IMG/VR virus record: IMGVR_UViG_2681813318_000014
DNA from: a virus
Lineage: Duplodnaviria; Heunggongvirae; Uroviricota; Caudoviricetes
Reading direction: 5' to 3' (one strand)
DNA length: 21,605 nt
Every line of letters begins with the position of its first letter. The stretch's first letter is position 1. Below the pieces are notes generated by a model. It searched no databases and was not told where the DNA came from. It saw only the letters and a list, made by a program, of their open reading frames with translations. Shown here in pieces: positions 7,833 to 20,514 of the stretch. A program made the position numbers and the translations under genes.

Positions 7833-8234
7833 TTAAACGTGTCTAATAAAAATCACCCGATTAACGCCGCGCTGATGTAAACCGCGATTAAGCGTTTGTT
7901 CCTCTTCCCCTTTGGCGAAAAACTGTGGATGGCGGACTTCCACACCATAATTAAATTCGCCAGGGAGAGAATCGAGAAAATGCCAAAGCGCAGGCAGCTC
8001 CCGTGGGCCGAATGTGGCAGGCAGTTGCAGCCAGTATTGCCCAATGCGCGGAGCCAACGGTGACATGCGGGTCAAAAATTCAGTCACTAAATCATCGCAA
8101 TGTCGTAATGCTGCCTGATGCGAAATGGTCGCCGGAAACTTAAAACAGAAGCGGAAGTCATCTGTGGTCTGTTCACGCCAGCGCAGGACAACCTCGGGTT
8201 TCGGCAGGGCGTAAAGCGTGGTGTTGCCCTCCAC
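7833..8234 (-). pseudogene. yecE: fragment of a chromosomal DUF72-family gene (consistent with yecE), missing both ends
   Basis: GC-richer composition than both flanks; sequence CVEGNTTLYALPKPEVVLRWREQTTDDFRFCFKFPATISH fits the conserved DUF72 N-proximal pattern as recalled; no native start (frame open into the integrase 3' end); only about 133 codons versus roughly 270 expected. Confidence 0.5.
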
Positions 8235-8260
8235 GCAGTTAACATGACGGGTATTAAGGA

Positions 8261-9574
8261 TTAACTTACTGATTTTAATAAGCCTCTGGTGTCACTTTGG
8301 TGACTATGGGGCATCATTGGGACATAATCTGTCAGCTTCTGATTCAGCATTGCGATCTGTTCTGCATTGCTGTCAGTCATCCATGCTCCGTATACATTGA
8401 ATACCATCTGGGCACTTGCATGGCCCATCTGGCTGGCAATGAAGCTTGGGTTTGCTCCGGCAGATAATGACCAGCACGCATAAGTGTGTCGTGACTGGTA
8501 TGCCTTTCGATGCCTGATCCCTGCACGCTTAATGGCTGTTTCCCATGAGTCACCTACAGAATCGACTTTGTAGACAAAACCTACCTGTTCGCTTTTTCTA
8601 ACCACTTGAGGGTTAAACACGAAAGTACATTCATGGTTCACTGAACGTCCATATTCACGTAGTTGCACCTTGATGTTGTACTGCTTACCCAGTCTTGTCA
8701 TTTCAGCCTGATTTTTCAGGACACTGATAGCGGGCTGGATAAGGTGCACAACCCTGTTTGTGCTTGCTTCAGTTTTCGGTAGAGTGAACTCACCAAGTTT
8801 CGTATAATTGCGCCTGATGGTAATTGTTCCTGCCTTCAGATCGATATCTTCCCAGGCCAGGGAGACCAGTTCACCGTGACGCATTCCTGTGTACACAGCC
8901 AATGACCACAGGTTTTTCGTCTGCTGATGTCGGCAAGCATCTATCAGGCGAATAAATTCGTCACGAGTTAGCGGATCTGGCTCTGCCCTGGCTCTTTTAA
9001 GAGGCTTAATTCCCTGGAAGGGATTTGCTTCTAAGTAACCGTGATCTGCAGCAAACTGAAACATTCCAGCGATTGTCGTCATGTAATAATTTACAGTAAC
9101 GACGCTCCGTCCTTTTGCTGCTGCTTTGTTTTTCGTTGAATTCTGATACCCGGTAAGCAAATCTTTCCTGATATACAGCAATTCCTCTTTGGTTACCGAT
9201 GACACCAGTCTACTGCCTCCAATTTTCGGAACCATCGTTCTTGCAACGGATTCATAGCGATTGAATGCATTTGCAGAGATTTCCATTCGTTTCAGATCCA
9301 GCCACTTTTCTTCAAGTTCCTTCACCGTAATTTCTTTTTTACTTACCCCAAAAGCCTGAAGGTTGGGGGAGTCAGGGAACTGTGCAGCATAATCAAAGCT
9401 TCCTGTGCGGATGGCAAAACATACTGATGTCCGCAGTTCCCCGGCGATCTTCCTGTTCTTGGCAGTGTCAGGGACACCAAGATTTTCCCTGACACGTTTA
9501 CCGTTAAAATTAAACCAGATGCGTAATGTGCCGCCGTGGTTTTCGACGCCTGTTGGATATTTGACTTTATCCAT
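8261..9574 (-). CDS. int: phage tyrosine integrase (437 aa)
   Basis: C-terminal catalytic-region residues consistent with a tyrosine recombinase (AYQSRHTYA..., ...VYGAWM); N-terminal arm-type domain; GGAGGT RBS; immediately downstream of an excisionase-like gene on the same strand. Confidence 0.85.
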   Translation of the reverse strand: MDKVKYPTGVENHGGTLRIWFNFNGKRVRENLGVPDTAKNRKIAGELRTSVCFAIRTGSFDYAAQFPDSPNLQAFGVSKKEITVKELEEKWLDLKRMEISANAFNRYESVARTMVPKIGGSRLVSSVTKEELLYIRKDLLTGYQNSTKNKAAAKGRSVVTVNYYMTTIAGMFQFAADHGYLEANPFQGIKPLKRARAEPDPLTRDEFIRLIDACRHQQTKNLWSLAVYTGMRHGELVSLAWEDIDLKAGTITIRRNYTKLGEFTLPKTEASTNRVVHLIQPAISVLKNQAEMTRLGKQYNIKVQLREYGRSVNHECTFVFNPQVVRKSEQVGFVYKVDSVGDSWETAIKRAGIRHRKAYQSRHTYACWSLSAGANPSFIASQMGHASAQMVFNVYGAWMTDSNAEQIAMLNQKLTDYVPMMPHSHQSDTRGLLKSVS

Positions 9575-15537: not shown

Positions 15538-16227
15538 CTAACCAAATCTGTTTATGTTGAATGGTACTGATGAGATCACTTTAGACTGGATATAAAGCAG
15601 AGCTAACCCCTCTTTTTCGATGCTCCATGGTTGATAATTGGGGTTATCAGATAACACCATGATTTTGCTTCCAATTTTTTGAAGCCTTTTCACGTAGCAT
15701 TCTCCATCAAAACAAAATGCATAAATACCATCGCCATCAAAATAAGTTACTGTCTTATCAAGAAAAAGAAGGTCGCCAGGTGAGATTGTGGGAGCCATAC
15801 TGTCTCCTCTGGCGTTACCTATTTCTATATTTTTGAATGCCCGATTTCCAACAAGACGTCGGGCATATTCAGGATCAAGTTCTATTGAGCGCACTACATC
15901 TATCAAGTCACCACGGACATGAGTTCCATCACCGCAACTAAACTCAACATCAAGGACATTAAATACGACGCTATCTGTTCTTGTCTGGTGTTTCTCTTGC
16001 GAGGAAAAGGTTGGTGAGGAGTCTTCACCTAAGAACCAGGATTGTGGATAACCGCTAATCTCTGATAAATGCGCGAGCTTATCACTCCGTGGAAATGTTT
16101 TTCCTGTTGTCCAGTACTGCACTGATTGCGCACTCACACCTAACTTGCGGGCCAGTTGAGCCTGAGTCCATCCTTTTGCTTTCAGCATCGCGGCTATTCG
16201 ATTTTCCGTGTTTTTGACGTTCTTCAT
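15538..16227 (-). CDS. cI: prophage repressor, cI-like (HTH plus LexA-type S24 peptidase domain), 229 aa
   Basis: N-terminal HTH (WTQAQLARKLGVSAQSVQYW); C-terminal autocleavage domain with Ser in GDSMAPT and Lys in VKRL; divergent from a cro-like gene; start moved to ATG 16227 (track start is TTG). Confidence 0.85.
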   Translation of the reverse strand: MKNVKNTENRIAAMLKAKGWTQAQLARKLGVSAQSVQYWTTGKTFPRSDKLAHLSEISGYPQSWFLGEDSSPTFSSQEKHQTRTDSVVFNVLDVEFSCGDGTHVRGDLIDVVRSIELDPEYARRLVGNRAFKNIEIGNARGDSMAPTISPGDLLFLDKTVTYFDGDGIYAFCFDGECYVKRLQKIGSKIMVLSDNPNYQPWSIEKEGLALLYIQSKVISSVPFNINRFG

Positions 16228-16233
16228 GACCAA

Positions 16234-16360: not shown

Positions 16361-16633
16361 ATGGAAGGAAATGATTACGACAAACTTCGTGCATTAATTG
16401 CGCAAAATGCCATAGCGCGAAATCTTGGTGTGACGCCGCAAGCGGTGAATCAGTGGTTTTCAAAAAACACAATTCCTGCTCGTTTCGTTTTACGCGTATG
16501 TGAAGTAGTTGCATGGAAGGTCACGCCACATGGCTTAAGGCCAGATCTTTATCCTCACCCTGAAGATGGAATTCCTGATTCGTTACGCAAAATTTCAAAT
16601 CCAAGCTTAGCGCACACAGAGGACGAGAAGTGA
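16361..16633 (+). CDS. cro: Cro-like repressor, YdaS-type HTH (90 aa)
   Basis: Divergent from cI; segment NLGVTPQAVNQWFSKNTIPARFVLRVCEVVAWKVTPHGLRPDLYP fits the YdaS/Cro-type HTH family as recalled. Confidence 0.7.
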   Translation: MEGNDYDKLRALIAQNAIARNLGVTPQAVNQWFSKNTIPARFVLRVCEVVAWKVTPHGLRPDLYPHPEDGIPDSLRKISNPSLAHTEDEK

Positions 16634-16703: not shown

Positions 16704-16997
16704 TTAGCGTTCGCTGAGAAGTTGTTGGTAAGCCTTAAAGGATGCGAACTGCATTCTACCTTCGGCATTGATTCCAATGCCTTCGCTTGTACACCAGGTG
16801 ATGAACTCGGCTGTATCCGCTTCAACTTTAATAACTCGTTGCCCGCTTCTTTCGACACGCTTAATCAATTTTTCAGCGTCGTGTTTCCACTCGGTGTAAC
16901 TGTCGGAGAGCACATCAGCATCAGTAAAAATATTTTTGAGCTCATGATACTGAATCGCATCGCGAAACCAGAATAAACCAACGGCCTGAACTTTCAT
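16704..16997 (-). CDS. hypothetical protein (97 aa) encoded antisense within the early-right operon (moron-like)
   Basis: ATG 16997 with AAGGAGG RBS 7 nt upstream; opposite strand to cro and the rha genes; no recognised motif. Confidence 0.5.
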   Translation of the reverse strand: MKVQAVGLFWFRDAIQYHELKNIFTDADVLSDSYTEWKHDAEKLIKRVERSGQRVIKVEADTAEFITWCTSEGIGINAEGRMQFASFKAYQQLLSER

Positions 16998-17116: not shown

Positions 17117-17824
17117 GTGAACACCGCAATTTTTAACGACAAAGCATCCATGACCAGCGTTGAGATCGCAGAGCTGGTGGGTAAACGTCATGACAATGTG
17201 AAACGCACTATTGAAACATTAGCCAAAGGTGGCGTTGTCCGGTCTCCTCAAATTGAGGTTTCCGAAAGAATCAATAACTTAGGTTTTAAAGTTCAATATG
17301 AGCATTACCTGTTTGAAGGAGAACAAGGTAAGCGCGACAGCATCATTGTCGTCGCACAGCTCTGTCCTGAATTCACTGCTCGCCTGGTAGATCGCTGGCG
17401 CGAACTGGAAGAACAGATCCGTAAGCCAATGAGCGAAATCGAAATGGTTGCCGCGATGGCTCTTGAAGCCGTTCGCCAACAGAAACGGATCACTCAGGTG
17501 GAAGAAAAAGTCAGCCACGTTGCTGAAACAGTCGAGCAAATTAAAAAGGGCACTATTCGTGAGGGCTATGCCGGATATCGCCAACTGAAAGCAAAAACCG
17601 GTTTGTCAGATGATAAATGCCGCAATCTGGTGAACGCCTATCAGATTCCTACAGACACCCATGAGTTCATGACGCCGGACGGATTGTTGTCACGTCGCGC
17701 AATTGTTGCTGTGGAACCGTTTATGGCTGCTTTTTATCGGGTTATGGAGGAAGCAGAACCGCGAGGGACTCGCTGGTATCACCCGAAAATGGGGTTATTT
17801 CAGGTTATTGGTTGGCAGCGGTGA
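17117..17824 (+). CDS. phage regulatory protein, Rha family (about 235 aa)
   Basis: Motif SVEIAELVGKRHDNVKRTIETL matches the Rha-family N-terminal signature as recalled; the track ATG at 17075 has no RBS; ATG 17111 abuts AAGGAG with no spacer, so GTG 17117 (6-nt spacer) is favoured; the start is uncertain by a few codons. Confidence 0.65.
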   Translation: MNTAIFNDKASMTSVEIAELVGKRHDNVKRTIETLAKGGVVRSPQIEVSERINNLGFKVQYEHYLFEGEQGKRDSIIVVAQLCPEFTARLVDRWRELEEQIRKPMSEIEMVAAMALEAVRQQKRITQVEEKVSHVAETVEQIKKGTIREGYAGYRQLKAKTGLSDDKCRNLVNAYQIPTDTHEFMTPDGLLSRRAIVAVEPFMAAFYRVMEEAEPRGTRWYHPKMGLFQVIGWQR

Positions 17825-17847
17825 AAAAAAGCCGGGAGTAACCCGGC
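17824..17847 (-). terminator. strong intrinsic-terminator hairpin oriented for the minus strand
   Basis: GCCGGG-AGTAA-CCCGGC (17831-17847) with the run 17824-17830 giving U7 on the minus strand; begins at the Rha stop codon. Confidence 0.45.
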
Positions 17848-18232
17848 TCACTCAACATCAATAACGGGGAGCTGTTTCGCATAAAACGGCTCCGAAACAT
17901 CCAAGAACAGTTCTAAAGATATCAGCAGCTATATGATCATTTCAAGACCAAATATTGATTCTGCAATTTCGGGACGTTACACTGTCTCTGCACCTTATAA
18001 AGCGGGTGCCGGGGGTCGCAGCCCGGAATTGTCAACGGCGATATATGACGCGCCAGCGTCTTTTTTATCGTCCGCGCTCACGCACGCCAGAATTATGGTG
18101 GGCTGGGCAGGGGAGCCGAAAGGCTCGCCGGTCTCCGTTGACGCCGGTACTGCGAACCCTGTTCAGTCTGCCACCAGTGAGTTTCGCAGCTCCGGTGGTG
18201 GAAGTTTTCCACAGTCAACGGAGGCTGCCATC

Positions 18233-18784
18233 ATGGCTACGATCCCAACCCTCACTCAACCTGAAATTGCCATCGTTGATGGTCAGGCTGTTACTTCATC
18301 CCTGGCTGTTGCCAACTTCTTCTCCAAGCGTCATGACGATGTACTGAAAAAGATCCGCACGCTTGAATGCTCCGCATCATTCACTGCCCGCAATTTTTCG
18401 GTGAGTGATTACACCGATTGCACAGGCCGCAAACTACCTTGCTATCAAATCACCCGTGATGGCTTCGCGTTCCTTGCTATGGGCTTTACTGGCAAACGTG
18501 CAGCCCGGTTCAAAGAGGCATACATCAACGCCTTTAACCTGATGGAGAAGAGTTTATCAGGTGCCGATGCGTCTGATATGTCAGCTGTCGCACGAAACGC
18601 CAGAGGCGTATACCTGCATTTGCGTGAAATCCATCAAATCTGGACAAGCCAGCTTTATCCAATGCTTAAGGCCGTTGAATCTCCGCTGGCTAGCAAACTG
18701 TACGACCGTGTTGGTGATGCTGTTTTTGGCGCTGCACTTGTTGATTCCAGGCTGAATGGTTCTGACAAGGAGGTTCGCCCATGA
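18233..18784 (+). CDS. second Rha-family-like regulatory protein (183 aa)
   Basis: ATG 18233 with GGAGG 9 nt upstream; motif AVTSSLAVANFFSKRHDDVLKKIRTLE; the track's longer version (from 17933) adds a GC-rich low-complexity extension with no RBS. Confidence 0.65.
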   Translation: MATIPTLTQPEIAIVDGQAVTSSLAVANFFSKRHDDVLKKIRTLECSASFTARNFSVSDYTDCTGRKLPCYQITRDGFAFLAMGFTGKRAARFKEAYINAFNLMEKSLSGADASDMSAVARNARGVYLHLREIHQIWTSQLYPMLKAVESPLASKLYDRVGDAVFGAALVDSRLNGSDKEVRP

Positions 18785-18975: not shown

Positions 18976-19196
18976 TCCGCCACATCGTTAATTCCCTGTA
19001 TCACCGATACAACCGTTGCCCCCGTGTGGGGCAGTGGTTCGCCACCAGCAACGGTCACGTTCTGCGGGTTTGCCTAGTCAACGCTGAAAGCCAGAAAGTC
19101 GTGTGCGAACTACAGGGGCGTAGCTACACCATCAGTTACCCTCTGGCGGTATTTCTGTCTGGAAAAATGTTTAAGCGTCTGGGAGGTGTGGCGTGA
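18972..19196 (+). CDS. small hypothetical phage protein (74 aa), Cys/His-containing
   Basis: ATG in ATGA overlap; GAGGTG RBS. Confidence 0.5.
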   Translation: MIRHIVNSLYHRYNRCPRVGQWFATSNGHVLRVCLVNAESQKVVCELQGRSYTISYPLAVFLSGKMFKRLGGVA

Positions 19197-19492
19197 ACTG
19201 TTTTCAGTTTGTGTGCGGATGTGCTTTCGATAACCCGATTCAGCGCCTAATTATGTTGCGTGTTTTGATGTCGGGTTCTTCAGACGGTGAAGGCGAGAGA
19301 GTTATTGATCATCAGGTGCTTGCTGATTTCTGCTGTTGTTCTAAGCAAGCGATATTCAGGGAAACCCTGGCACTGGAAAGAGCTGGTTATCTTCATATCC
19401 GAAAAATTGCAACGCTTACTATTGATGCAAAAGCCCGACTACAACCTGCGCGTGGCTACACAATTCTCATGCCGCGGAAGGAGGTTGTATGA
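19193..19492 (+). CDS. hypothetical protein, possible winged-helix DNA-binding (99 aa)
   Basis: GTG start in GTGA overlap with GGGAGGTG RBS. Confidence 0.45.
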   Translation: MNCFQFVCGCAFDNPIQRLIMLRVLMSGSSDGEGERVIDHQVLADFCCCSKQAIFRETLALERAGYLHIRKIATLTIDAKARLQPARGYTILMPRKEVV

Positions 19493-20514
19493 GCCGTTAC
19501 GCCCCCACACCGGAAGTTATGGCTATTGGTCAAATTAATATTTCCGGCAATGTTACACCTGCGAACTGGTGGAAATATATTCGACTACCCAGTGGGCGTC
19601 CGGATGCGACGGCTATCGCTCTGCTTTCAGAGATCGTTTACTGGTACCGCCCGACAGAGGTCAGGGATGAGCACACCGGAGCGTTGCTGGGATATCGCAA
19701 GCGTTTTCAGGGCGACAAACTGCAAAGAAGCTACCAGGCGTTTGCTGAGCAGTTTGGTTTCGGGAAAAGGGAAACCGCAGATGCGCTGAAGCGTCTGCGC
19801 GATGCAGGGTTTATTACTCTGGATTTACGCACGGTGGAAATGCTCGATGGGGTGAAATGCAGCAATATTTTGTTTGTCGGGATCAACCCACAGGCAATTG
19901 CGGCCATCACCACACCTTCTTCTGTTTCGCCAGAAAGTAACAGCAATAATGCAATCAGCGATACAGCTATTACGTTAAAACGGAACACCCCCCGACGTCA
20001 TAACGGAACAGGGGATACGCCGAATGTTGATACAAATACAGAGATTACTACAGAGATTACAACGGAGACTAAAAACACTATTGATGCATCCGCTGACGCG
20101 TCTGCGCGTTCTGCCCGACAGGAATATTCACCGGAATTTGAACAGGCCTGGCAGGAATATCCCAAACGTGCTGGTGGCAATTCCAAGTCAGCGGCCTTCA
20201 AAGCCTGGAAAGCCCGTATCAGGGAGGGAATAAAACCGGAGACCATGCTTGATGGCGTGAAGCGGTATGCCGCCTGGGTACGTGCTACAGGAAATACCGG
20301 CACACAGTTCGTGAAGCAGGCTGCGACGTTCTTTGGACCCGATCGTCACTTCGAAGATTACTGGCAACAGCCAGCCGCTCACGGAGGTGGGCGACAGCGA
20401 CAGGTCGATGTCCTGGCTGGCCTGGGAGCCATGTCTGACAAATTCGGTAAATCCAGTAACGAGGGAGCCACTTATATGTTGGGGAGGCAAAGCCTCCCGC
20501 AACATATCTTTTAG
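19489..20514 (+). CDS. phage replication-initiator/replisome-organiser-like protein (341 aa)
   Basis: ATG in ATGA overlap with AAGGAGG RBS; two domains joined by a Thr/Glu-rich linker that is encoded by tandem 12-bp repeats; overall resemblance to lambdoid O-type proteins is from memory. Confidence 0.55.
   Translation: MSRYAPTPEVMAIGQINISGNVTPANWWKYIRLPSGRPDATAIALLSEIVYWYRPTEVRDEHTGALLGYRKRFQGDKLQRSYQAFAEQFGFGKRETADALKRLRDAGFITLDLRTVEMLDGVKCSNILFVGINPQAIAAITTPSSVSPESNSNNAISDTAITLKRNTPRRHNGTGDTPNVDTNTEITTEITTETKNTIDASADASARSARQEYSPEFEQAWQEYPKRAGGNSKSAAFKAWKARIREGIKPETMLDGVKRYAAWVRATGNTGTQFVKQAATFFGPDRHFEDYWQQPAAHGGGRQRQVDVLAGLGAMSDKFGKSSNEGATYMLGRQSLPQHIF
20037..20072. repeat. three tandem 12-bp repeats inside the replication gene (possible origin iterons)
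   Basis: ACAGAGATTACT / ACAGAGATTACA / ACGGAGACTAAA, in frame (TEITTEITTETK). Confidence 0.3.

What the first reader, a model, noticed from the sequence alone, without database searches (positions are those of the whole stretch)
17824..18232. GC-rich structured non-coding spacer between the two Rha genes
About 400 bp with no convincing coding frame: the track ORFs here are low-complexity with no RBS. It contains a strong minus-strand intrinsic terminator (17824-17847) with no annotated minus-strand gene upstream of it, and a possible minus-strand promoter (TTGAAA-18-TATCTT, complement of 17916-17945) that would give an RNA of about 85 nt. On the plus strand there is a possible promoter (TTGATT-17-TACACT, 17956-17984) followed by hairpins CCGGG...CCCGG and GACGC-GCCA-GCGTC plus T6 (18049-18066), and a GNRA-type hairpin GAGCC-GAAA-GGCTC (18113-18126). 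This suggests one or two small RNAs or a cis-acting RNA element.
Basis: seen in the sequence. Interest (0 to 1): 0.5.

Follow-up and report, generated by a model that had tools for sequence, protein, structure and literature searches.

The report
Phage immunity RNAs, not a gene
The spacer holds a well-known pair of phage regulatory RNAs (IsrK and C4) that mask the ribosome-binding site of the next gene. It also holds a possible, so far undescribed, small RNA gene on the opposite strand.

Summary
On the + strand, 17955-18232 is an IsrK-C4 module. This is the RNA immunity system known from phages P1/P7 (c4), from satellite P4 (seqA/CI) and from Salmonella Gifsy-1 (IsrK). Both RNAs pass Rfam's curated thresholds: C4 at 18091-18178 with 78.8 bits, isrK at 17990-18066 with 58.7 bits. 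Two unpaired segments of C4 are complementary to sites inside IsrK and to sites just upstream of the second Rha gene, and one downstream site covers its Shine-Dalgarno sequence (GGAGG 18220-18224, ATG 18233). Across 17 divergent loci these contacts co-vary three ways, with 97-99% of cells paired against about 40% in slid controls.

RefSeq annotates this stretch as the N-terminus of a 283-aa protein, and Pfam matches it as an 'Ash' domain. Its substitutions show no protein-level constraint (pN/pS 0.9 versus 0.19 for the real Rha domain).

The minus-strand promoter-terminator unit (17824-17945) matches no Rfam family. It is a self-contained 127-bp cassette found in about 4% of E. coli genomes in three sequence types that keep the promoter, a 5' GUUCUUGGAU block, a hairpin and the terminator. 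Its expression and function are unproven.

Overall: a known system, with one modest new lead.

The parts
17117..17824 (+). First Rha/Ant-like gene (Rha1). GTG start at 17117 with AAGGAG six bases upstream. The stop TGA at 17822-17824 abuts the A7 run of the minus-strand terminator.
   Evidence: Pfam Phage_pRha 40.2 bits. PHROG 63 'anti-repressor Ant', E 2.6e-48. Same coordinates as the RefSeq CDS.
17824..17908 (-). Candidate 85-nt small RNA. The 5' end is GUUCUUGGAU(GUU). It has an internal hairpin GGAGC..GCUCC, a single-stranded UUAUUGAUGUUGAGUGA stretch, and a terminator hairpin (17829-17849) followed by U7.
   Evidence: Fold -28.2 kcal/mol, z -3.1. Three sequence types keep the architecture; types B and C fold with z -4.5 and -4.3. 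No Rfam family matches beyond terminator-only hits below threshold. The TSS at G 17908 is inferred from the -10 position.
17916..17945 (-). Sigma-70-like promoter of the minus-strand RNA: TTGAAA, 18 nt, TG-n-TATCTT. It lies back to back with the IsrK promoter; the two -35 hexamers are 9 bp apart.
   Evidence: The -35 hexamer, the 18-nt spacing and TGnTAT(C/T)TT are kept in all 24 distinct copies except for one -35 variant, while the spacer between types A and B is only about 56% identical, counted by eye on the alignment.
17825..17951 (.). The 127-bp cassette (terminator to -35) as an insertion unit between Rha1 and the IsrK promoter.
   Evidence: Homology to other phages starts at 17952-17954. 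Rha1-bearing phages of the phiP27 type and the DUF4222 type lack the cassette. It is present in 223 of 5426 E. coli genomes, always in this context in the 40 records listed.
17955..17983 (+). IsrK promoter, the analogue of P4 PLE and P1 P51: TTGATT-17-TACACT. The inferred TSS is about 17990.
   Evidence: Identical promoter in 11 of 17 loci. In the others a different TAnnnT hexamer sits at the same distance from IsrK position 1.
17990..18066 (+). IsrK / seqA-like RNA. Hairpin 1 is 17990-18009. Hairpin 2 is 18010-18025 and displays the upstream junction-target TCGCAG (18016-18021) in its loop. The upstream loop-target GTCAACGG (18031-18038) is single-stranded. The intrinsic terminator is 18047-18066.
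   Evidence: RF01394, 58.7 bits (gathering 50), full length. Stems are 93-100% paired with compensatory changes. Both target sites co-vary with C4.
18091..18178 (+). C4 / CI-like antisense RNA. It has a 17-bp closing stem, hairpin 1 (18113-18126) and hairpin 2 (18127-18148). The unpaired loop element CTCCGTTGAC is 18133-18142 and the unpaired junction element CTGCGAA is 18150-18156.
   Evidence: RF01695, 78.8 bits (gathering 45), E 3e-14, full length. The MFE fold equals the family fold, z -4.3. Covariation in all three stems.
18183..18224 (+). Downstream target region in the Rha2 leader. The junction-target TTCGCAG is 18183-18189. The loop-target GTCAACGGAGG is 18214-18224 and contains the Shine-Dalgarno GGAGG (18220-18224).
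   Evidence: 11-bp duplex of -18.8 kcal/mol and 7-bp duplex of -10.5 kcal/mol. Loop plus junction against the leader gives z -5.6. Of 16 well-aligned pairs, 13 show changes on both sides.
18233..18784 (+). Second Rha gene (Rha2), 183 aa from the ATG that follows the masked SD. It is antirepressor-like and is the regulated gene.
   Evidence: Phage_pRha 104 bits. pN/pS 0.19, with variation mostly at third codon positions. Homologs are annotated as antirepressor/Ant. SD plus ATGGCTAC is conserved in 16 of 17 loci.
17933..18232 (+). The 100-codon 'N-terminal extension' of the RefSeq CDS, which is the Pfam 'Ash' match. The frame is open across the IsrK promoter, IsrK, C4 and the targets. It is the positional equivalent of the N-terminal part of P4 eta.
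   Evidence: RefSeq CDS. PF10554 matches residues 16-111, i.e. nt 17978-18265. pN/pS is 0.87-0.94 in all three frames and variable sites are flat across codon positions. No SD precedes ATG 17933.

Best explanation
The + strand half of the spacer (17955-18232) is an IsrK-C4 RNA immunity module. It controls the second Rha (antirepressor-like) gene and probably the transcription that continues into the replication genes.

Proposed steps. All of them are inferred from sequence, from comparison with other loci and from the P1, P4 and Gifsy-1 literature:
1. A promoter at 17955-17983 starts transcription near 17990.
2. Most transcripts stop at the intrinsic terminator 18047-18066. This gives the 77-nt IsrK RNA.
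3. Read-through transcripts carry the C4 element (18091-18178). In P1 and P4 this element is cut out as a stable RNA of about 77 nt.
4. Two unpaired segments of C4 pair with two sites in the leader of Rha2. The segments are the hairpin-2 loop (18133-18142) and the multiloop junction (18150-18156). The leader sites are 18183-18189 and 18214-18224.
5. The second leader site covers the Shine-Dalgarno sequence. Translation from ATG 18233 is therefore blocked, in cis on the same transcript and in trans on transcripts of a homo-immune phage. In P1 and P4 untranslated RNA is then terminated prematurely.
6. IsrK carries a second copy of both target sites (18016-18021 and 18031-18038). It competes for C4. 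In Gifsy-1, short IsrK acting in trans opens the long transcript and switches translation on.

The pairing segments differ between phages and co-vary with their targets. They therefore act as immunity-specificity determinants.

The long ORF drawn across the module is not a conserved protein domain. If it matters, it matters as in P4 eta. There, ribosomes reading through from an upstream promoter override the RNA block.

The minus-strand half (17824-17945) is a separate inserted cassette. It most likely makes an ~85-nt terminator-ended RNA of unknown role.
For: Shown here:
- Both Rfam families pass their gathering thresholds over their full length.
- The same IsrK-then-C4 pair, mostly about 25 nt apart, occurs in all 16 homologous loci examined and in P4 itself. 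These cover lambdoid, e14-like, P1-like plasmid, P4-like and APSE-3 elements. In P4 the C4 hit falls where the CI RNA is known to be.
- Counts on 17 loci: 97.4% of 1019 cells pair, 30 of 60 pairs change on both sides, 0 of 500 shuffles reach this, and slid controls give 36-45%.
- C4 against the upstream sites inside IsrK: 98.7% paired, 12 of 14 pairs change on both sides, covariation score 0.87 against 0.04-0.15 when slid.
- Hybrid energies: -18.8 kcal/mol for the loop on the SD site. Loop plus junction against the leader is -42.6 kcal/mol, z -5.6. The MFE fold of the full leader forms these contacts in cis, z -5.7.
- The regulated gene is a genuine CDS starting at 18233 (pN/pS 0.19) whose homologs are annotated as antirepressors.

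From the literature:
- c4 blocks ant mRNA around its ribosome-binding site and sets P1/P7 heteroimmunity (PMC12197685).
- IsrK read-through, orf45 and anrP activation in trans, and a stable processed RNA downstream of IsrK (PMC4825925).
- IsrK and C4 are the structural homologs of P4 seqA and CI, and they occur in lambdoid prophages (PMC3632133, PMC10111431).
Against: - There are no expression, processing or Hfq data for this locus.
- The IsrK promoter matches the consensus in only 8 of 12 positions, and the scan did not call it.
- IsrK's own fold is not better than shuffles (z -0.65).
- Whether Rha2 is an antirepressor, and of which repressor, rests on annotation only.
- The three experimentally studied relatives differ in outcome: translation block plus Rho termination in P1, termination control of a replication operon in P4, trans-activation in Gifsy-1. 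Sequence cannot say which applies here.
- Unlike Gifsy-1, the ORF that starts at the C4 AUG (18095) has no stop and runs in frame into Rha2. The uORF-coupling step described there cannot be identical.
- A helix between the C4 3' tail and the downstream GGUGG has no covariation support.
Confidence: 0.88

Rival explanations
1. The stretch 17933-18232 is what RefSeq and Pfam say it is. It would be the N-terminal 'Ash' domain of a 283-aa Rha/Ash protein, and the RNA-like features would be secondary.
For: - RefSeq annotates the ORF as a CDS.
- PF10554 scores 62 bits, against a cut-off of 26.
- The frame is open across C4 and IsrK in 13 of 17 loci.
- Three indels are multiples of three: +45, +39 and +3.
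- In P4 the equivalent ORF (eta) is reported to be translated from an upstream promoter (PMC10111431).
- In Gifsy-1 the orf45 part is translated (PMC4825925).
Against: - pN/pS is 0.87-0.94 in this frame, the same as in the other two frames. Variable sites are 54/51/49 and 29/30/29 by codon position. The Rha2 domain in the same loci gives 0.19 and 18/8/46.
- Substitutions follow RNA pairing instead.
- A promoter and an intrinsic terminator lie inside the supposed domain.
- No SD precedes ATG 17933, and the start is 109 nt from the Rha1 stop.
- Indels or stops break the frame in L008, L009, L012, L013 and L017.
- In P4 the PF10554 match lies on the old 'cI gene product' CDS, over the C4 hit that marks the CI RNA.
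- The Gifsy-1 authors also noted conserved nucleotides but variable amino acids for orf45 (PMC12197685).
Confidence: 0.07
2. The minus-strand cassette encodes a trans-acting, Hfq-type small RNA. It would use its conserved 5' end GUUCUUGGAU as a seed on host or phage mRNAs.
For: - It is a self-contained promoter-RNA-terminator unit with sharp insertion boundaries.
- In three sequence types about 71% identical, the promoter hexamers, the spacing, the 10-nt 5' block and the terminator are kept. The internal hairpin is replaced by unrelated hairpins: GGAGC/GCUCC, ACUUC/GAAGU and CUGC/GCAG.
- A type B variant, ACUUC/GAGGU, is a G-U pair on the minus strand and a C-A mismatch on the plus strand.
- All three types fold with z between -3.1 and -4.5.
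- The terminator hairpin with U7-8, preceded by a U-rich single strand, is typical of Hfq-binding RNAs (general knowledge).
Against: - There is no expression evidence.
- No target better than chance was found in the window, for the 5' block or for the 3' single strand. Host genomes could not be scanned.
- Two type A variants weaken the hairpin on the minus strand but not on the plus strand.
- Distribution is narrow: 223 of 5426 E. coli genomes, and no true match in GTDB species representatives.
- It matches no Rfam family, and its sequence was not found in the paper library.
Confidence: 0.35
3. The minus-strand cassette works in cis, like lambda OOP. A short convergent transcript would be antisense to read-through RNA from the Rha1 operon. 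It would insulate the IsrK-C4-Rha2 module from upstream transcription, by RNA duplex cleavage or by polymerase collision.
For: - Its orientation opposes the early rightward genes, and its size (85 nt against 77 for OOP) and promoter/terminator layout resemble OOP (PMC12197685).
- The + strand has no U-tract after the hairpin, so Rha1 transcripts should read through.
- The only strong complement to the RNA in the window is its own antisense strand.
- The cassette also cuts the eta-like long ORF off from any upstream gene, whereas e14-like relatives keep it coupled to ymfL.
Against: - OOP overlaps the 3' coding end of cII. This RNA overlaps Rha1 only at its stop codon.
- Conservation of a specific 10-nt 5' block across types is not needed for a purely antisense role.
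- A minus-strand gene (16704-16997) already interrupts the rightward operon upstream. How much transcription arrives from the left is therefore unknown.
Confidence: 0.25
4. The minus-strand features are not an RNA gene. The hairpin would merely end or stabilise the Rha1 message, and the promoter match would be chance.
For: - One promoter-like match in 2 kb is fewer than shuffles give (mean 2.4).
- The hairpin directly follows the Rha1 stop codon.
Against: - The run of T's lies on the minus-strand side only.
- The promoter hexamers, the 18-nt spacing and the TG are kept while the neighbouring bases diverge.
- Other Rha1 genes do without this cassette.
Confidence: 0.3

Closest known systems
c4 antisense RNA of the immI operon of phages P1 and P7 (Rfam RF01695)
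   Same: - Same RNA family, with a full-length match at 78.8 bits.
- Same fold.
- Two unpaired segments pair with sites upstream and downstream in the same transcript, and the downstream contact covers the ribosome-binding site of the first gene of an antirepressor operon.
- The pairing segments vary between phages and define specificity.
- A P1-like plasmid locus (L009) aligns column for column with the window.
   Different: - The downstream gene is a Rha-family protein, not icd followed by ant1/ant2.
- The host element is a chromosomal lambdoid prophage with a CI/Cro switch, not a plasmid prophage with C1.
- The module sits just upstream of the replication genes.
- Control of the promoter by the main repressor, as at P1 Op51 (from memory), was not examined.
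seqA / CI RNA / seqC immunity system of satellite phage P4, with the nested eta and kil ORFs
   Same: - The isrK and C4 models hit P4 at 8615-8692 and 8420-8507, in the same order.
- An open frame (eta; its C-terminal 137 codons are the old 'cI' CDS) runs across the RNA genes, and the CDS translation matches Pfam Ash just as the window's ORF does.
- The module precedes replication functions.
   Different: [quoted passage not shown] In the window the long ORF starts 109 nt after Rha1, has no SD, and is cut off by the inserted minus-strand cassette.
- P4 has a 107-nt gap between seqA and CI, against 24 nt here.
- The C-terminal effector differs (Kil versus Rha).
IsrK - orf45 (STnc1160) - anrP locus of Salmonella prophage Gifsy-1 (Rfam RF01394; PMC4825925)
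   Same: - Same RNA family, with its own promoter and a leaky intrinsic terminator.
- The read-through transcript is translationally silent because IsrK-complementary sequence pairs downstream.
- An antirepressor-like gene follows.
- The lambdoid prophage context is the same.
   Different: - In Gifsy-1 a separate 45-codon uORF ends before anrP and is needed for coupling. Here the ORF from the equivalent AUG (18095) continues in frame into Rha2.
- The Gifsy-1 paper does not describe the downstream element as C4, although it compares it with P4 CI.
- No antQ-type output can be inferred here.
Lambda OOP RNA (comparison for the minus-strand candidate only)
   Same: A short RNA (77 versus about 85 nt) with its own promoter and intrinsic terminator, transcribed against the early rightward genes between a regulator gene and the replication genes.
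   Different: - It does not overlap the coding 3' end of the upstream gene.
- No homology was tested or claimed.
- It carries a conserved 5' block that suggests a seed.

Membership tests
C4 antisense RNA (RF01695; P1/P7 c4, P4 CI) | Covariance-model score at or above the curated gathering score, over the whole model | tested here: met
   78.8 bits against 45, model positions 1-87 of 87, E 3e-14.
C4 antisense RNA (RF01695; P1/P7 c4, P4 CI) | Fold: a long closing stem enclosing two hairpins, kept by compensatory changes | tested here: met
   The MFE fold equals the family structure. The closing stem is 99.7% paired with 6 pairs changed on both sides. In hairpin 1, 4 of 5 pairs are changed on both sides.
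C4 antisense RNA (RF01695; P1/P7 c4, P4 CI) | Unpaired segments complementary to sites in the downstream leader, one covering the ribosome-binding site | tested here: met
   Loop 18133-18142 pairs with 18214-18224 (includes GGAGG) and junction 18150-18156 pairs with 18183-18189. Of 16 well-aligned pairs, 13 change on both sides across 17 loci.
C4 antisense RNA (RF01695; P1/P7 c4, P4 CI) | A second set of the same target sites upstream in the same transcript | tested here: met
   Sites 18016-18021 and 18031-18038 lie inside IsrK. 98.7% of cells pair and 12 of 14 pairs change on both sides.
C4 antisense RNA (RF01695; P1/P7 c4, P4 CI) | Excised from a longer transcript as a stable ~77-nt RNA that acts in trans as an immunity factor | not testable with these tools
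   This needs RNA mapping and superinfection or fusion assays.
isrK / seqA RNA (RF01394) | Covariance-model score at or above gathering | tested here: met
   58.7 bits against 50, model positions 1-77 of 77. The margin is modest.
isrK / seqA RNA (RF01394) | Own promoter and Rho-independent terminator, placed directly upstream of a C4-like element | tested here: met
   The terminator was called by the scan. A -10 hexamer sits at a fixed distance from position 1 in all 17 loci. The IsrK-then-C4 order holds in 16 of 16 loci and in P4.
isrK / seqA RNA (RF01394) | A separate short uORF (orf45) that stops before the antirepressor gene and couples its translation, as in Gifsy-1 | tested here: not met
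   The ORF from AUG 18095 is 138 nt upstream of ATG 18233, in frame with it, and has no stop. The locus therefore belongs to the RNA family, but the Gifsy-1 coupling step cannot be copied unchanged.
isrK / seqA RNA (RF01394) | Hfq binding; activation of the long transcript in trans | not testable with these tools
   Experimental only (PMC4825925).
Pfam PF10554 'Ash protein family' / P4 Eta N-terminal region, taken as a protein domain | Profile match above the curated cut-off | tested here: met
   62.1 bits against 26, residues 16-111, i.e. nt 17978-18265.
Pfam PF10554 'Ash protein family' / P4 Eta N-terminal region, taken as a protein domain | Amino-acid sequence under purifying selection, as expected of a protein domain | tested here: not met
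   pN/pS is 0.87-0.94 and equal in all three frames, with no third-position excess. The Rha2 control gives 0.19 and 18/8/46.
Pfam PF10554 'Ash protein family' / P4 Eta N-terminal region, taken as a protein domain | A usable translation start (SD, or coupling to the upstream gene as reported for P4 eta) | tested here: not met
   No SD lies before ATG 17933, and Rha1 stops 109 nt upstream. The e14-like relatives L011, L015 and L016 do have an ATGA-type overlap with the upstream gene.
Lambda OOP-type cis-antisense RNA (minus-strand candidate) | A short RNA with its own promoter and intrinsic terminator, opposite to the early rightward genes | tested here: met
   This rests on sequence features only; no transcript data exist.
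Lambda OOP-type cis-antisense RNA (minus-strand candidate) | Overlap with the 3' coding end of the upstream regulator gene | tested here: not met
   The RNA would end at 17824, the last base of the Rha1 stop codon.
Hfq-type trans-acting sRNA (minus-strand candidate) | Terminator hairpin with a long U tail, plus a conserved single-stranded seed with identifiable targets | tested here: inconclusive
   U7-8 and a conserved 10-nt 5' block are present. No target above chance was found in the window. Host genomes could not be scanned.

The most novel reading that the evidence does not exclude
The 127-bp cassette at 17825-17951 would be an undescribed, mobile small-RNA gene (a 'moron') of E. coli lambdoid prophages. 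It would make an ~85-nt RNA whose conserved 5' end GUUCUUGGAU regulates host or phage mRNAs, or which insulates the IsrK-C4 immunity module from upstream transcription. Its insertion would also have uncoupled the eta-like long ORF from upstream translation, changing how this prophage overrides its RNA immunity.
Probability: 0.4. Interest if true: 0.45.

Novelty: already known. Interest (0 to 1): 0.3.

Why it matters
**Biology.** The module is a second layer of immunity in a lambdoid prophage, made of RNA and placed between the CI/Cro switch and the replication genes. It decides whether an antirepressor-like protein is made. Its variable pairing segments give each phage its own specificity. This is established for P1, P7, P4 and Gifsy-1, so nothing new in kind is shown here.

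**Annotation.**
- RefSeq draws a 283-aa 'Rha family' or 'ash family' protein across the two RNA genes in the records inspected, and related stretches occur in thousands of E. coli genomes.
- Pfam PF10554 and PHROG profiles model that translation.
- Published surveys treat 'Ash' as a protein domain of unknown function. One survey uses PF10554 as the marker for P4 epsilon, but epsilon matches a different family (PF25738).
- Reading these loci as RNA changes the predicted start and size of the regulated proteins.

**The open lead.** The only item not yet described is the minus-strand cassette, a candidate accessory sRNA carried by about 4% of E. coli genomes.

Tried and rejected
- **Targets of the minus-strand RNA in the window.** A pattern search for the complement of the 5' block found only the locus itself within 2 mismatches. 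Duplex scans of the 5' 16 nt and of the 3' single strand gave best non-self hits of -16.7 and -20.1 kcal/mol. These are no better than shuffled probes, which averaged -19.2 and -20.9.
- **A small protein on the minus strand** (31 aa, 17900-17805). Rejected: no SD, the ORF runs through the terminator, and its ATG is lost in type C.
- **Identity of the minus-strand RNA with known prophage sRNAs.** AgvB, AsxR, Esr41 and STnc100 are Rfam families and gave no hit even at E up to 10. The Pas sRNAs lie in late regions. Text searches for the sequence found nothing.
- **Spread beyond E. coli.** One pattern scan of GTDB species representatives gave a single hit. It proved to be a chance match in an unrelated contig.
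- **A helix between the C4 3' tail (CCACCA) and the downstream UGGUGG.** No covariation, and the register is ambiguous.
- **Wobble asymmetry to decide the strand of the cassette's hairpin.** Inconclusive: one variant group favours the minus strand and two favour the plus strand.
- **Old papers.** Riedel 1993 and Forti 1999 are not held. The P1 a/b site names are therefore not used. The APSE-3 record labels the loop a' and the junction b'. My recollection of the P1 papers is the reverse.
Full report
**Context.** The window is a lambdoid prophage of Escherichia coli. Bases 17700-18350 are 100% identical to many complete genomes.

Around the finding lie these genes:
- a CI-type repressor (15538-16233, minus strand);
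- a Cro-like gene (16361-16633);
- a minus-strand gene of unknown function (16704-16997);
- a first Rha/Ant-like gene (Rha1, 17117-17824);
- the spacer under study;
- a second Rha gene (Rha2);
- three small ORFs;
- replication initiation genes (19193-20514).

Folding energies exceed dinucleotide shuffles:

| Element | z-score |
|---|---|
| Full leader 17990-18245 | -5.7 |
| C4 element | -4.3 |
| Minus-strand RNA | -3.1 |
| First + strand RNA (IsrK) alone | -0.65 |

**What the + strand part is.** A scan of the whole window against Rfam at curated thresholds gave exactly two hits, and both fall in the spacer. C4 antisense RNA (RF01695) lies at 18091-18178 with 78.8 bits (gathering 45). isrK (RF01394) lies at 17990-18066 with 58.7 bits (gathering 50). 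Both cover the full model.

The GAAA hairpin is the first internal hairpin of C4.

The pair is not a coincidence. I fetched 16 loci at 67-93% identity, covering lambdoid and e14-like prophages, a P1-like plasmid, P4-like satellites, Salmonella phages ST64B and 118970_sal3, and APSE-3. All of them carry IsrK followed by C4. Satellite phage P4 carries the same pair, and there the C4 hit falls on the region of the CI immunity RNA. The APSE-3 record even annotates both RNAs.

The literature already equates IsrK with P4 seqA and C4 with P4 CI, and notes the pair in lambdoid prophages (PMC3632133, PMC10111431).

**How it works: what the comparison shows.** Two segments of C4 stay unpaired in the family fold: the loop of hairpin 2 (CTCCGTTGAC, 18133-18142) and the multiloop junction (CTGCGAA, 18150-18156). 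Each has a complement downstream and a complement upstream:

| C4 segment | Downstream target (Rha2 leader) | Upstream target (inside IsrK) |
|---|---|---|
| Junction | TTCGCAG, 18183-18189 | TCGCAG, 18016-18021, in the loop of IsrK hairpin 2 |
| Hairpin-2 loop | GTCAACGGAGG, 18214-18224, including the GGAGG of ATG 18233 | GTCAACGG, 18031-18038, single-stranded |

Across the 17 loci these segments differ freely, and all three partners change together. For example, the loop segment is GTTGAC, GTATGC, TTGATC, TTGGTG or GATAAC in different loci, each with matching sites on both sides.

For the internal stems plus the downstream contacts, 97.4% of 1019 cells form pairs and 30 of 60 pairs change on both sides. 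No shuffle out of 500 reaches this, and sliding the partners by 1-3 columns drops pairing to 36-45%. For the upstream contacts, 98.7% of cells pair, 12 of 14 pairs change on both sides, and the covariation score is 0.87 against 0.04-0.15 when slid.

The loop-SD duplex is -18.8 kcal/mol. Loop plus junction against the leader gives z = -5.6. The unconstrained fold of the whole leader forms the same contacts in cis.

**The resulting model.** It is the one established for the relatives:
- C4 masks the ribosome-binding site of the downstream antirepressor-type gene, and it defines immunity specificity through its variable segments. This is the P1/P7 mechanism (PMC12197685, summarising Citron and Schuster 1990).
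- IsrK carries decoy copies of the targets, competes for C4, and can switch the long transcript on in trans. This is the Gifsy-1 mechanism (PMC4825925).
- In P4 the same contacts cause premature termination ahead of the replication genes (PMC10111431).

Sequence alone cannot tell which of these outcomes dominates here. The position just upstream of the replication genes makes a P4-like effect on downstream transcription plausible.

**Coding or not?** RefSeq annotates 17933-18784 as one 283-aa 'Rha family phage regulatory protein'. Other genomes call the same stretch 'ash family protein', including over the c4 gene of a P1-like plasmid.

Pfam PF10554 ('Ash protein family') matches residues 16-111 of that ORF. 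This corresponds to nt 17978-18265, which is exactly IsrK, C4, the target sites and the first 11 codons of Rha2. In P4 the Ash match lies on the old 'cI gene product' CDS over the CI RNA. The true epsilon protein belongs to a different family, PF25738.

I tested for coding constraint:

| Region and loci | pN/pS in the ORF frame | pN/pS in the other two frames | Variable sites by codon position |
|---|---|---|---|
| Nine ungapped loci, Ash region | 0.87 | 0.83 and 0.90 | 54/51/49 |
| Four loci sharing Rha2, IsrK-to-C4 stretch | 0.94 | 0.82 and 0.86 | 29/30/29 |
| Same four loci, first 110 codons of Rha2 | 0.19 | 1.32 and 2.39 | 18/8/46 |

The stretch therefore does not evolve as a protein domain.

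The frame is nevertheless open across C4 and IsrK in 13 of 17 loci, although indels or stops break it in five loci. This fits what is reported for P4. There the ORF eta spans the promoter, seqA and CI, and it is translated only from an upstream promoter. The passage of ribosomes, rather than the peptide, overrides termination (PMC10111431, citing Forti 1999, which I could not read).

In the window such an override looks weak. ATG 17933 has no SD and is not coupled to Rha1. The e14-like relatives, in contrast, start the long ORF on the stop codon of the upstream gene.

The ORF from the C4 AUG (18095) corresponds to Gifsy-1 orf45. Here it runs in frame into Rha2 without a stop. This is a real difference from Gifsy-1.

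**The minus-strand part.** Homology to phages that lack it shows that 17825-17951 is a discrete insertion between the Rha1 stop and the -35 of the IsrK promoter. It occurs in 223 of 5426 complete E. coli genomes, always in this context in the 40 records listed, and in IMG/VR prophage contigs.

There are three sequence types about 71% identical to each other (24 distinct copies). All of them keep:
- the -35 TTGAAA (one copy has TTGGAA), an 18-nt spacer and TGnTAT(C/T)TT;
- the block GUUCUUGGAU, 7-13 nt after the -10;
- a hairpin;
- UUGAG(Y)GA;
- a terminator hairpin followed by U7-8.

The hairpin itself has unrelated sequences in the three types: GGAGC/GCUCC, ACUUC/GAAGU and CUGC/GCAG. All three types fold better than shuffles, with z of -3.1, -4.5 and -4.3. 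The inferred RNA runs from 17908 to 17824 and is 85 nt long.

It matches no Rfam family beyond terminator-only hits below threshold. It is not one of the described EHEC or EPEC prophage sRNAs, and its sequence is absent from the searchable literature. I found no target above chance in the window and no true match outside E. coli.

It is therefore a reasonable but unproven sRNA gene. Its role could be in trans, through a 5' seed, or in cis, as an OOP-like insulator against read-through from Rha1. It fails the OOP criterion of overlapping the upstream coding region.

**Verdict.** The main element is a textbook member of known families, so its novelty is low.

Two by-products deserve a note. The 'Ash' protein annotation is a translation of an RNA module. 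The conserved minus-strand cassette is a candidate new accessory sRNA.

Noticed in passing
window 17933-18265; L098 (P4) 8168-8584: Pfam PF10554 'Ash protein family', and the RefSeq name 'ash family protein', model the translation of the IsrK-C4 RNA module, which shows no amino-acid constraint. The window's Rha2 matches only positions 144-323 of 324 and 101-285 of 307 of PHROG profiles 821 and 995, so those profiles appear to include the same N-terminal extension. Two papers treat Ash as a protein domain of unknown function or as the marker for P4 epsilon, but epsilon itself matches PF25738.
   Followed up: yes
L008 1279-1340 and L014 1132-1199: Two P4-like or satellite-type loci carry a 39-nt and a 45-nt insertion between the IsrK terminator and C4. 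The insertions contain a second promoter-like motif (for example TTCAGT..17..TATAAT). This suggests C4 can have its own promoter in some elements. Both insertions are multiples of three.
   Followed up: no
alignment A2: L003 and L005 versus window; L004, L006, L010, L014 and L015: The two C4 pairing segments assort independently. L003 and L005 share the window's junction segment but have a different loop segment. L004, L006, L010, L014 and L015 share a junction segment (ACGCCAA) combined with four different loops. Specificity therefore looks combinatorial and recombining.
   Followed up: partly
window 16704-16997 (minus strand): A 97-aa minus-strand gene (PHROG 4753, unknown function) sits between cro and Rha1. 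RefSeq annotates the equivalent gene in the related loci L002-L004. It interrupts what would otherwise be a continuous rightward early operon. A 110-aa + strand ORF overlapping it has no family match.
   Followed up: partly
window 17916-17983: The minus-strand promoter and the IsrK promoter are back to back, with their -35 hexamers 9 bp apart. Type A copies carry a palindrome with a Dam site (ATGATCAT) in the minus-promoter spacer. Possible co-regulation was not examined.
   Followed up: no
window 18220-18250 and the same columns of A2: The SD, an 8-nt spacer and ATGGCTAC(N)(N)TCCC (peptide MAT-I/V-P) are conserved in 16 of 17 loci, even though the downstream proteins differ (Rha, Icd-like, other). 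The first few codons therefore seem to belong to the RNA module or to a recombination joint rather than to the protein families.
   Followed up: no
L099 7836-7898: The only hit of the cassette pattern in GTDB species representatives is a chance match in a Chthoniobacterales MAG contig. It has no similarity outside the pattern.
   Followed up: yes
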